Shown: piece after piece, positions 17,184 to 17,278 of the stretch
Layout of the letters: each line of letters starts with the position of its first letter
How positions within the stretch are numbered: the stretch's first letter is position 1
IMG/VR virus record: IMGVR_UViG_3300028666_000023
Span: 57,104 to 89,103 of that record
DNA length: 32,000 nt
Strand: one strand, 5' to 3'
From: a virus
Program-made: the position numbers and the translations under genes
Notes under the pieces: generated by a model
The model's database searches: none
Told to the model about the DNA's origin: nothing
The model's input: the letters and a program-made list of their open reading frames with translations, nothing else

Positions 17184-17278
17184 TGAGGGAGGATGGATTC
17201 GAACCACCGACTTCCGGCGCCCCTCTGCCTCACGACGTCGGGGTGGTGCCGGTACTCTGACCACTGAGTTACTCCCTC
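17184..17278 (-). tRNA. tRNA-like gene with canonical acceptor, D and T arms but 29 nt between the anticodon-stem halves (interrupted or replaced anticodon loop)
   Basis: Minus strand: GAGGGAG-TA-ACTC-AGTGGTCA-GAGT-A-CCGGC-[ACCACCCCGACGTCGTGAGGCAGAGGGGC]-GCCGG-AAGTC-GGTGG-TTCGAAT-CCATC-CTCCCTC-A (95 nt). The insert can extend the stem (CCCC/GGGG) to a 16-nt apical loop containing the palindrome CGACGTCG. I found no 5-bp/7-nt anticodon hairpin in any register, and a class-II long-variable-arm parse also fails. Confidence 0.65.

What the first reader, a model, noticed from the sequence alone, without database searches (positions are those of the whole stretch)
17184..17278. Second tRNA-like gene whose anticodon loop is replaced by a 29-nt insert
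The acceptor (GAGGGAG/CTCCCTC), D arm (ACTC-AGTGGTCA-GAGT) and T arm (GGTGG-TTCGAAT-CCATC) are canonical and resemble those of the neighbouring tRNA-like gene. Between the anticodon-stem halves CCGGC and GCCGG lie 29 nt: ACCACCCCGACGTCGTGAGGCAGAGGGGC. These can stack a further CCCC/GGGG helix and end in a 16-nt loop containing the palindrome CGACGTCG. I tried every register for a 5-bp/7-nt anticodon hairpin and a class-II (long variable arm) or tRNA-Sec parse, and none works. Bacterial tRNA introns are group I and are hundreds of nt long. A ~22-nt insert at this position would be archaeal/eukaryal in style, and removing it at the canonical 37/38 site does not produce a normal loop. The gene is therefore either a novel kind of interrupted tRNA or a tRNA-shaped RNA that is not a decoder.
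Basis: partly seen in the sequence, partly recalled or inferred. Interest (0 to 1): 0.75.

Follow-up and report, generated by a model that had tools for sequence, protein, structure and literature searches.

The report
Phage tRNA mimic without an anticodon
This is a real, conserved phage gene for an RNA with every hallmark of a tRNA except the anticodon, which is replaced by a closed helix; it belongs to a widespread family, apparently undescribed, that always sits just after a peptidyl-tRNA-hydrolase-like gene.

Summary
On the minus strand (17278→17184) lies a 95-nt gene with a full tRNA core: 7-bp acceptor stem, D and T arms, and all elbow nucleotides (Rfam tRNA 56.6 bits). Between the anticodon-stem halves lie 29 nt instead of 7.

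It is neither an interrupted tRNA nor a pseudogene. No excision restores a U33 loop, and there is no bulge-helix-bulge motif.

The gene starts 5 nt after the stop codon of a Pth2-fold protein. I collected about 160 loci with homologues of that protein, from large soil phages, Myxococcota-binned MAGs and Myxococcus phage Mx1. Almost all carry 1-4 odd tRNA-like genes directly downstream. Of 270 distinct genes, only 30 have a 7-nt loop; 77 have an extended closed anticodon arm, mostly capped by CUUG.

That extended helix covaries strongly. The window's layout, an extended-arm gene followed by a 9-nt-loop gene, is the commonest.

The window's arm is an unusual long variant: internal loop, 4 bp, tandem-GA loop, 3 bp, GNRA cap. 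One analogue (L078) has two compensatory pairs.

Best reading: a non-decoding tRNA mimic acting through its acceptor/elbow half together with the Pth2-like protein, probably in tRNA-centred phage-host conflict. The function is inferred, not shown.

The parts
17184..17278 (-). Non-decoding tRNA mimic ('class X'), 95 nt: acceptor, D and T arms with all elbow nucleotides, and an extended closed anticodon arm
   Evidence: Rfam tRNA 56.6 bits; CM R1 65.5 bits; cloverleaf MFE; family comparison
17214..17252 (-). Extended anticodon arm: base stem CCGGC/GCCGG (17248-17252 with 17214-17218); ACCA/C internal loop; helix CCCC/GGGG (17240-17243 with 17220-17223); GAC/AGA tandem-GA loop; helix GUC/GGC; GNRA cap GUGA (17230-17233)
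   Evidence: MFE. Same architecture in L078:2813-2906 with two compensatory pairs (C-G to U-A in the base stem and in the inner helix) and a GNRA cap kept as GAGA. No U33 loop after any excision and no BHB
17284..17577 (-). Pth2-fold protein gene, 97 aa; stop codon TAG at 17284-17286, 5 nt before the tRNA mimic
   Evidence: Pfam PTH2 E 0.0017, below cut-off; many homologues carry PF01981; profile vs PDB aligns full length to AF2095 Pth2; AlphaFold pLDDT 88.5; Foldseek top 12 hits all Pth2, 3erj TMq 0.85
17126..17183 (-). Spacer with a 10-bp-stem hairpin between the two tRNA-like genes
   Evidence: Fold z -2.56, 5/200 shuffles. L003 has a spacer in the same place sharing GGUUGUAC...GCCAA but with a different stem sequence. 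Its role in the module is not established
17051..17125 (-). Second tRNA-like gene ('class Y') with a 9-nt anticodon loop AUUGAAUAA; partner of the X gene in the commonest module layout
   Evidence: Rfam 51.3 bits; ARAGORN tRNA-Phe(gaa); 91 of 270 module genes have 9-nt loops; X followed by an 8-11-nt-loop gene is the commonest architecture, 25/111

Best explanation
SHOWN. The gene encodes an RNA that keeps the complete L-shape core of a tRNA. Its anticodon loop is replaced by a closed, extended helix, so it has no anticodon to read a codon with.

It belongs to a family, here called class X, found immediately downstream of a Pth2-fold gene in more than 100 related loci. These come from large soil phages, Myxococcota-binned MAGs and Myxococcus phage Mx1. 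X usually sits beside a gene with a 9-nt loop (class Y) and often a third gene (class W) whose anticodon arm carries either a 7-nt UCU loop or a bare tetraloop. The extension is maintained as a helix by compensatory evolution.

INFERRED. The gene starts 5 nt after the Pth2-like stop codon, so it is probably co-transcribed with it. It would then be released by RNase P and 3' processing and given CCA. CCA is encoded in 18 of 77 relatives but not in this copy.

Its acceptor stem and discriminator show no conserved identity set. It lacks G3:U70, C73 and a long variable arm, so it probably stays uncharged.

MOST LIKELY MECHANISM (speculative). It acts in trans through its acceptor/T-elbow half as a tRNA look-alike that cannot enter decoding and cannot be cut at an anticodon loop. 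It would serve as a decoy or tight ligand for a host factor that recognises tRNA bodies, such as an anticodon-arm nuclease or a toxin that modifies the acceptor end. The Pth2-like enzyme would recycle blocked tRNAs.

The capping hairpin is CUUG in most relatives. Here it is a tandem-GA/GNRA module. Either is likely a specific binding surface rather than a mere plug.
For: tRNA core.

Family and linkage:
- The Pth2 homologue is followed within about 10-20 nt by tRNA-like genes in 69 of 111 distinct architectures (median 14 nt).
- The Pth2-like protein is the only conserved protein in +/-2.5 kb.
- Among 270 distinct module genes, the nucleotides between the stem halves number 7 in 30, 8 in 20, 9 in 91, 4 in 15, and 12-30 in 77.
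- 69 of 111 architectures contain an X gene. The window's X-then-Y layout is the commonest, 25/111.

Covariation: 94% of cells paired, 23 of 27 pairs with changes on both sides, 0/500 shuffles reach the observed values, and slid controls give 40-54% paired. In the 11-bp extended arm, 9 pairs show compensatory changes.

Cap bias: CUUG/CUUGC in 39 of 77 X genes, against 5 UUCG and about 9 GNRA.

Window arm: the L078 analogue has two compensatory pairs on a different tRNA body.

The strict X signature in IMG/VR was found only on Pth2 contigs: 2/2 for one pattern and 3/3 for another.

Pth2 fold.

Conflict context: in Mx1 the homologue lies in a tRNA island with an RNA ligase fragment, a phosphoesterase and a TROVE/Ro60 gene.

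No published description was found.
Against: - There are no expression, processing or binding data.
- The decoy role is inference from context. A stoichiometric decoy against a catalytic toxin is not obviously effective.
- The window copy's cap (GUGA on a long irregular arm) differs from the family norm, and its inner fold alone is not better than shuffles.
- Only one analogue of this arm type was found. Two of its three inner helices are identical between the two copies and so are untested.
- The Pth2-like protein lacks the Lys of the archaeal RGK motif, so its activity is uncertain.
- The module could simply be a degenerate part of a tRNA array kept for cis processing.
Confidence: 0.5

Rival explanations
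1. Cis-acting processing or stability element. The tRNA-shaped units serve only as RNase P/RNase Z 'punctuation' that sets the 3' end of the Pth2-like mRNA. The anticodon was capped simply to stop a useless tRNA from interfering with translation.
For: The first tRNA-like gene starts a few nt after the Pth2 stop in most loci and 5 nt after it in the window. No promoter-like site lies between them. Anticodon-arm length and sequence vary widely. In distant relatives the same positions hold ordinary tRNA-Arg(UCU) and tRNA-Lys(UUU) (L163/L164).
Against: One unit would be enough, yet two or three distinct classes are kept in a fixed order. Each class has its own arm features: CUUG bias in X, 9-nt loops in Y. 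The extension itself covaries. The window-type arm is conserved on a different body in L078.
Confidence: 0.2
2. Dedicated non-ribosomal carrier or substrate. X is charged, or peptidylated, at its CCA end by an enzyme that ignores anticodons. It then donates the group to a transferase, as Gly-tRNA does for phage Mu Mom, or it is the specific substrate or regulator of the Pth2-like hydrolase, forming an RNP with it.
For: Tight and exclusive linkage to a Pth2-fold protein. Intact acceptor/T-arm minihelix, with CCA encoded in 18 of 77. There is precedent for a tRNA-dependent phage enzyme (PMC13219725).
Against: Acceptor stems and discriminators are not conserved (A 40, G 31, U 5, C 1). No G3:U70 appears (pair 3:70 is GC/CG/AU only), there is no long variable arm, and C73 is almost absent. 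The known anticodon-independent identities Ala, Ser and His are therefore not met. No transferase or aaRS is conserved nearby.
Confidence: 0.15
3. Intron-containing tRNA. The ~22-29 nt are removed by an archaeal-type or novel splicing pathway to yield a normal decoder.
For: The insert sits in the anticodon arm. ARAGORN with introns allowed produces a tRNA-Pro(cgg) parse with a 22-nt intron.
Against: Every contiguous 22-nt excision leaves a loop without U33, and the arm has no BHB. The insert is far too short for a group I intron, and Rfam reports no intron family. Relatives have perfect 10-12-bp helices with tetraloops and no recoverable anticodon. The context points to a bacterial host.
Confidence: 0.03
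4. Decaying tRNA pseudogene that picked up a random insertion.
For: The window copy's arm is irregular, and on its own folds no better than shuffles. No second copy of the insert exists in the window.
Against: The score to the tRNA model is high and every stem is intact. The family is conserved across Pth2 identities from about 70% down to about 40%, with complete compensatory turnover of the acceptor stem. The arm architecture is conserved in L078.
Confidence: 0.03
5. Y-RNA-like scaffold. The extended arm is a binding site for a Ro60/TROVE protein, by analogy with bacterial YrlA.
For: Mx1 encodes a TROVE protein about 0.8 kb upstream of its Pth2 homologue. YrlA RNAs carry a tRNA-like domain (PMC4201824, listed).
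Against: No TROVE gene is found in the 32-kb window, and none is among the conserved neighbours. Mx1 itself lacks a class X gene next to its Pth2 homologue. In YrlA the topology is the reverse: the termini lie in the Ro-binding stem and the acceptor-like stem is closed. Rfam gives no Y-RNA match.
Confidence: 0.05

Closest known systems
Canonical bacterial/phage elongator tRNA (Rfam RF00005)
   Same: 7-bp acceptor stem, 4-bp D stem, 5-bp T stem with UUCGAAU loop, 5-nt variable loop, all elbow/tertiary nucleotides, location within a phage tRNA-rich context; passes the Rfam gathering score.
   Different: No 7-nt anticodon loop, no U33, no anticodon; the arm is about 12 layers longer and closed by a GNRA tetraloop, so codon reading in the ribosomal A site is not geometrically possible (inference from tRNA geometry).
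Phage tRNAs that evade tRNA-targeting defences (mycobacteriophage anticodon-loop variants, eLife 2023 PMC10264068; T5 tRNA-Lys against PARIS PMC11464382; T5 tRNA-Tyr against retron Eco7 PMC11555353)
   Same: Phage-encoded, sits in a tRNA region, and the altered part is the anticodon arm, which is the usual target of host nucleases.
   Different: Those are functional decoders with point changes. This RNA has lost the anticodon altogether and would have to act as a decoy or ligand rather than a replacement tRNA.
tmRNA tRNA-like domain
   Same: A tRNA acceptor/T-arm mimic with no anticodon; the anticodon-stem position continues into a long helix.
   Different: tmRNA lacks a D stem, has G3:U70 for AlaRS, carries pseudoknots and a tag ORF, and works with SmpB. 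None of these is present here (ARAGORN finds no tmRNA; pair 3:70 is never G:U).
Bacterial Y RNA YrlA (Ro60/Rsr partner; RNA 2014, PMC4201824)
   Same: A non-coding RNA with T arm, D arm and acceptor-like stem that is not a decoder, plus a long helix at the anticodon-stem position; a phage relative (Mx1) encodes a TROVE protein nearby.
   Different: Opposite topology: YrlA's ends lie in the long helix and its acceptor-like stem is capped. There is no Rfam match and no TROVE gene in the window or among conserved neighbours.
Viral tRNA-like RNAs that are not decoders (murine gammaherpesvirus 68 vtRNAs/TMERs; plant-virus 3' tRNA-like structures; mascRNA) - from my own knowledge
   Same: tRNA shape used for processing by RNase P/Z and CCA addition, or for host-factor binding, without decoding.
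   Different: Those come from eukaryotic systems with different architectures. None has a full canonical core with a helix-capped anticodon arm, and none is linked to a Pth2-like gene.

Membership tests
Decoding tRNA | Cloverleaf core: acceptor, D and T arms and tertiary nucleotides | tested here: met
   Rfam RF00005 56.6 bits against gathering score 29; MFE is a cloverleaf; U8, A14, G18G19, A21, G15:C48, G53:C61 and U54U55C56 read directly from the sequence
Decoding tRNA | 5-bp anticodon stem closing a 7-nt loop with U33, an anticodon at 34-36 and a purine at 37 | tested here: not met
   29 nt lie between the stem halves; no register or excision gives U33
Decoding tRNA | Aminoacylation by a cognate synthetase | not testable with these tools
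   Indirect only: no G3:U70, no long variable arm, discriminator A; the family shows no conserved identity set
Archaeal/eukaryal-type intron-containing tRNA | Bulge-helix-bulge motif (two 3-nt bulges separated by 4 bp) at the exon-intron junctions | tested here: not met
   A script scan of both registers found none in the anticodon arm
Archaeal/eukaryal-type intron-containing tRNA | Excision leaves a canonical anticodon loop | tested here: not met
   All 8 possible 7-nt products lack U33; relatives have perfect helices with tetraloops
Group I intron in a bacterial tRNA | Intron of about 200 nt or more with the P1-P9 core | tested here: not met
   The insert is 22-29 nt; no Rfam intron family is reported even at E<=1
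tRNA-Sec / class II tRNA | Long variable arm, or an 8/5 or 9/4 acceptor/T geometry | tested here: not met
   Variable loop is AAGUC (5 nt), with 7-bp acceptor and 5-bp T stems; no tRNA-Sec hit on this gene
tmRNA | tRNA-like domain with G3:U70 plus a tag reading frame and pseudoknots | tested here: not met
   ARAGORN finds no tmRNA; the gene has G3:C70
YrlA-type Y RNA | Termini in a Ro60-binding stem, a closed acceptor-like stem, and a TROVE gene adjacent | tested here: not met
   The termini are in the acceptor stem; no TROVE gene in the window; no Rfam hit
Pth2-linked phage tRNA mimics, class X (defined here) | Lies within a few hundred nt downstream of, and on the same strand as, a Pth2-fold gene | tested here: met
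   5 nt after the stop codon; Pth2 fold confirmed
Pth2-linked phage tRNA mimics, class X (defined here) | Full tRNA core plus an anticodon arm extended into a closed hairpin (12-30 nt between the 5-bp stem halves) | tested here: met
   29 nt, folding as a single hairpin
Pth2-linked phage tRNA mimics, class X (defined here) | Typical arm of about 10-12 bp with a CUUG-type cap | tested here: not met
   The window arm is longer and irregular, with a GUGA cap. Only L078:2813-2906 shares this arm type, so the window gene is an atypical member

The most novel reading that the evidence does not exclude
Anticodon-less tRNA mimics together with a Pth2-like enzyme form a previously unrecognised phage counter-defence (or translation-hijack) module. 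On this reading, nuclease-proof RNA decoys built on a tRNA body neutralise host tRNA-targeting immune effectors. Exchangeable capping hairpins (CUUG, or tandem-GA/GNRA) provide specificity. The 9-nt-loop and tetraloop genes beside them would be further members of the same toolkit.
Probability: 0.3. Interest if true: 0.85.

Novelty: new variant of a known kind. Interest (0 to 1): 0.72.

Why it matters
Phage tRNA genes are now understood mainly as spare parts that replace host tRNAs cut by immune nucleases. This family cannot be a spare part, because it has no anticodon. Yet it is conserved by compensatory evolution across more than 100 diverged phage loci and is locked to a Pth2-like gene.

If it acts in trans, it would be the first phage RNA that uses the tRNA body itself as a decoy or ligand. 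It would also give a function to the Pth2-like genes long noted in phage tRNA arrays.

There is a practical point as well. Annotation tools either miss these genes or mislabel them as intron-containing or odd-anticodon tRNAs. That inflates and distorts phage tRNA inventories and inferences about codon usage or recoding.

Myxococcus phage Mx1 carries relatives of the module, so the question can be tested in culture.

Tried and rejected
- **DNA similarity to annotated phages.** A 3-kb query around the gene gave no match. Queries with the gene itself or a typical X gene hit only generic tRNA segments.
- **Exact-pattern scans of IMG/VR for the window gene** found nothing.
- **The arm motif GACGTCGNRAGGCAGA in IMG/VR** gave 65 hits, none in a tRNA-like context; I treat them as chance.
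- **One IMG/VR scan was wasted.** I mis-specified the pattern with one N too many; its 3 hits were chance.
It is therefore only a weak test of exclusivity.
- **Closest Pth2 relatives (70-74% identity; L233-L237)** do not carry the window-type arm.
- **P0001, the 99%-identical protein,** could not be located on a contig.
- **A third tRNA-like candidate at 16949-17028** (tRNA-Sec model 18 bits, E 0.65; R1 12.5 bits, E 0.29; fold z +0.13) is not significant.
- **Assigning X to an isotype** failed. The labelled reference set was too incomplete. BLAST best full-length hits are tRNA-Lys, which is only a hint.
- **Kink-turn reading of the GAC/AGA loop** rejected by inspection: no 3-nt bulge precedes a GA step.
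- **Literature searches** found no description of such RNAs. The held library is incomplete, so this is not proof of novelty.

Full report
**1. What is in the sequence**

The feature is a gene on the minus strand, 17278→17184. Read 5'→3' it is:

GAGGGAG UA ACUC AGUGGUCA GAGU A CCGGC [ACCACCCCGACGUCGUGAGGCAGAGGGGC] GCCGG AAGUC GGUGG UUCGAAU CCAUC CUCCCUC A

The Rfam tRNA model matches it end to end at 56.6 bits (gathering score 29, E 7.5e-10). It treats the bracketed 29 nt as a local insert in place of the 7-nt loop.

All nucleotides that build the tRNA elbow are present: U8, A14, G18-G19, A21, the G15:C48 Levitt pair, G53:C61 and U54-U55-C56.

The minimum-free-energy fold is a cloverleaf with a long anticodon arm. 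In order, that arm is:
- a 5-bp base stem;
- an ACCA/C internal loop;
- helix CCCC/GGGG;
- a 3x3 loop GAC/AGA that can form tandem G-A pairs;
- helix GUC/GGC;
- the GNRA tetraloop GUGA.

ARAGORN misses the gene by default. With introns allowed it forces a tRNA-Pro(cgg) parse with the 'intron' inside the anticodon and C at position 33.

**2. Not an intron, not a pseudogene**

- I listed all eight ways of deleting 22 contiguous nt. None leaves a loop with U33. The 5' seven nt and the 3' seven nt of the insert contain no U at all.
- A scan of both possible registers for a bulge-helix-bulge motif found none in the arm.
- The insert is ten times too short for a group I intron. Rfam reports no other family here even at E<=1.
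- The insert has no second copy in the window.
- The context is a tailed phage of a peptidoglycan-bearing bacterium. It includes an Amidase_2/PG_binding endolysin, a MazG-like pyrophosphatase and giant tail-like ORFs.
- The window comes from a 193.8-kb metagenome contig.

**3. The neighbour that explains the context**

The gene begins 5 nt after the TAG stop codon of a 97-aa ORF (17577→17284). That protein matches Pfam PTH2 weakly (E 0.0017). It has 217 homologue clusters, many pre-annotated as PF01981.

A profile of 34 homologues aligns full length to the Archaeoglobus Pth2 AF2095. An AlphaFold model (pLDDT 88.5) has Pth2 structures as its 12 best PDB matches (3erj TMq 0.85).

The Lys of the archaeal RGK motif is not conserved. 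The family has its own invariant HAAGESSPG motif. I therefore call it Pth2-fold and leave its activity open.

**4. Related loci**

I fetched loci around homologues of this protein from several sources:
- contig look-ups;
- JGI metagenomes;
- IMG/VR;
- GTDB genomes;
- GenBank phages.

Nearly all have one to four tRNA-like genes on the same strand directly after the Pth2 homologue. The first starts a median of 14 nt after the end of the protein match, and within 20 nt in 69 of 111 distinct architectures.

An all-against-all comparison of ORFs in the flanks found no other conserved protein.

I built a covariance model from 40 of these genes. It recovered 270 distinct tRNA-like genes downstream of Pth2 homologues in 117 loci. 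The number of nt between the 5-bp anticodon-stem halves is distributed as follows:

| nt between stem halves | genes | note |
|---|---|---|
| 7 | 30 | canonical length |
| 8 | 20 | |
| 9 | 91 | |
| 4 | 15 | bare GNRA/UUCG tetraloop |
| 12-30 | 77 | closed extended hairpin, 'class X' |
| >45 | 4 | |

The table lists the main length classes; the remaining 33 genes have other lengths.

Only 4 architectures have canonical loops alone. 69 of 111 contain an X gene. The window's own layout, X followed by a gene with an 8-11-nt loop, is the commonest at 25 of 111.

**5. The extension is a selected helix**

Typical X arms are 10-12 bp closed by a tetraloop. Examples:
- L007: CCGUGGUAGUCC-UUCG-GGGUUACUACGG
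- L050: CUGGGCGGCG-CUUG-CGCCGUCCAG
- L100: CCGCGAAGGCG-CUUG-CGUCUUCGUGG

I analysed an alignment of 19 X genes that share one arm length. Results:
- 94.2% of cells form standard pairs, against 65% in shuffles and 40-54% in slid controls.
- 23 of 27 pairs show changes on both sides.
- 0 of 500 shuffles reach any of the observed measures.
- Within the 11-bp arm, 9 pairs have compensatory changes.
- The seventh pair from the base is usually a mismatch. The design is thus the original stem, then one or two non-Watson-Crick layers, then a 4-bp helix, then the cap.

The cap is CUUG or CUUGC in 39 of 77 genes, against 5 UUCG and about 9 GNRA. This bias suggests ancestry or sequence-specific recognition rather than stability alone.

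Acceptor stems turn over completely while staying paired. Discriminators are A (40), G (31), U (5) and C (1). CCA is encoded in 18 of 77.

No gene has G3:U70 and none has a long variable arm. C73 is nearly absent. The known anticodon-independent identity sets for Ala, Ser and His are therefore not met. By established identity rules this argues that X is not charged, but I cannot test that.

**6. The window copy is an atypical member**

Its body is most like the X genes of L005, L020 and L234: D stem ACUC/GAGU, T arm GGUGG-UUCGAAU-CCAUC, acceptor GNGGGAG.

Its arm, however, is 39 nt rather than about 26 and carries a GUGA cap. On its own the inner fold is no better than shuffles (z -0.23).

One other gene shares this arm: L078:2813-2906, which has a class W body.

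- L078: UCGGC GCCAA CUCC GAC GUC GAGA GGC AGA GGAG A GCCGA
- Window: CCGGC ACCA CCCC GAC GUC GUGA GGC AGA GGGG C GCCGG

Comparing the two:
- Two pairs change compensatorily (C-G to U-A), one in the base stem and one in the inner helix.
- The cap stays GNRA.
- The GAC...AGA loop and the 3-bp helix are identical, so they are untested.
- The rest of the two genes differs much more than the arm does.

This points to a conserved, possibly exchangeable, arm module. Scans for the motif elsewhere gave only chance hits. The closest Pth2 relatives carry other arm types.

**7. Hosts and a tractable relative**

GTDB hits are mostly contigs binned to Myxococcota: Polyangiaceae, Archangium, Nannocystis and Kofleriaceae. 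They carry the same tRNA-like genes.

Myxococcus phage Mx1 has a 50%-identical homologue annotated as peptidyl-tRNA hydrolase. It lies in a ~20-kb island with about 24 tRNA genes, an RNA ligase fragment, a calcineurin-like phosphoesterase, a VWA protein and a TROVE/Ro60 protein.

My model finds unannotated tRNA-like genes there. One has its anticodon arm reduced to 3 bp plus a GACG loop (record 44588-44650). Another has the loop AGUAAUGAC (record 60058-60132).

**8. How it most likely works**

Shown:
- a complete tRNA body without an anticodon;
- structural selection on the replacement helix;
- obligate-looking linkage to a Pth2-fold gene.

Inferred:
- co-transcription with the Pth2-like gene, given the 5-nt gap and no promoter-like site;
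- release by RNase P and 3' processing, then CCA addition;
- no decoding, because an arm this long cannot place a triplet in the A site;
- probably no aminoacylation.

My preferred mechanism is a trans-acting look-alike of uncharged tRNA. It would offer the acceptor/elbow surface, plus a specific capping hairpin, to a host or phage protein while being immune to anticodon-loop cleavage. In short, a decoy or ligand in tRNA-centred conflict, with the Pth2-like enzyme recycling blocked tRNAs.

The RNA-repair flavour of the Mx1 island fits this. So does the recent literature on defences that cut tRNA anticodon arms (papers listed). Neither proves it.

The main rival is a purely cis role as a processing signal for the Pth2 mRNA. 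A carrier or substrate role and a Ro60-scaffold role are less likely. Splicing and pseudogene readings are close to excluded.

**9. Comparison with known systems and novelty**

Rfam 15 files the gene only under generic tRNA. It fails the defining anticodon-loop feature of a decoder. It also fails the defining features of intron-containing tRNAs, tRNA-Sec, tmRNA and YrlA (see the membership table).

Pth2-like genes in phage tRNA arrays have been noted before for cluster C mycobacteriophages (PMC5966550).

Six full-text searches found no description of anticodon-capped tRNA mimics or of their linkage to Pth2. The held library is incomplete, so this is not proof.

I rate the finding a new variant of a known kind, the non-decoding tRNA mimic. 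The comparative support for its reality is strong. The function remains unresolved.

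Noticed in passing
window 17051-17125 (-): The neighbouring tRNA-like gene has a 9-nt anticodon loop AUUGAAUAA, with U at the position-37 equivalent. This is the commonest class in the module: 91 of 270 genes have 9-nt loops. 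Examples are ACUGUAGAA, ACUAUAGAA, CGAAUGGAG and AGUAAUGAC. Position 8 of the loop is almost always A, the '37' position is often a pyrimidine or G, and many loops contain UAG/UAA/UGA triplets.
   Followed up: partly
window 17126-17183 (-); L003 5382-5417: The spacer between the two tRNA-like genes folds into a 10-bp-stem hairpin (z -2.56). L003 has a spacer in the same place sharing GGUUGUAC...GCCAA but with a different stem sequence. This may be a small conserved element or a remnant of a third gene.
   Followed up: partly
window 16949-17028 (-): A GC-rich stretch gives a weak tRNA-Sec-like or tRNA-like match (18 bits, E 0.65; R1 12.5 bits, E 0.29) and contains a UUCGAUU motif. It is not significant and folds no better than shuffles. 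About 400 nt of apparently non-coding sequence (16546-16950) follow.
   Followed up: partly
window 17284-17577 (-) and alignment A1: The Pth2-fold protein family lacks the Lys of the archaeal RGK motif. It has its own invariant motif HAAGESSPG plus E64 and D66. It may have an altered substrate or mechanism.
   Followed up: partly
L007 2801-2888; L149 2886-2978; L120 3177-3269; L141 3328-3466: Some module genes carry a hairpin inserted in the D loop rather than the anticodon arm. In L007, for example, an otherwise normal tRNA-Arg(UCU)-like gene has GCCCUUCGGGGC in its D loop.
   Followed up: no
L005 5377-5486; L118 3225-3338; L122 2882-2998; L135 2941-3047: Four module genes have 46-51 nt in place of the anticodon loop. 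The L122 insert contains a T-arm-like hairpin CUAGGUUCGAAUCCUAG, as if part of a second tRNA were nested inside.
   Followed up: no
L400 (Myxococcus phage Mx1, OR576727.2) record 44588-44650, 45299-45372, 49298-49373, 60058-60132: Four tRNA-like genes are not annotated in the GenBank record. One has its anticodon arm reduced to 3 bp plus a GACG loop. One has the 9-nt loop AGUAAUGAC. Two look like ordinary tRNA-Pro genes (GGG and CGG). A TROVE/Ro60 gene, an RNA ligase fragment and a phosphoesterase lie in the same tRNA island.
   Followed up: partly
L274 1201-1288 (Streptomyces phage Lilbooboo gene 37): An 88-nt gene annotated as tRNA-Gly (codon GGG) has a GCAA-capped 4-bp mini-hairpin inside its anticodon region. 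It has no Pth2 context. Similar capped or interrupted anticodon arms may exist in unrelated actinophages.
   Followed up: partly
L002 2114-2363 (IMG/VR contig 3300010348_001885): A lower-GC phage with a distant Pth2 homologue carries three notable genes upstream of it: a CUA-anticodon (amber suppressor-type) tRNA, a tRNA-Lys(CUU), and a tRNA-Lys(UUU) with an unusual 16-nt variable arm.
   Followed up: no
window 20250-20660 (-); 8272-8865 (-); 2631-6839 (-); 21096-25700 (-): The phage encodes a stand-alone response-regulator receiver domain protein, an RNase HII, a deoxynucleotidase (NT5C) and two giant ORFs of 1402 and 1534 aa. The giant ORFs have almost no database matches (only DUF6651).
   Followed up: no
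L163/L164 2842-3002: In the most distant Pth2 loci (~37% identity) the two genes after Pth2 are ordinary tRNA-Arg(UCU) and tRNA-Lys(UUU). This hints that the odd classes W and X evolved from these isoacceptors. BLAST of a typical X body also hits tRNA-Lys best.
   Followed up: partly
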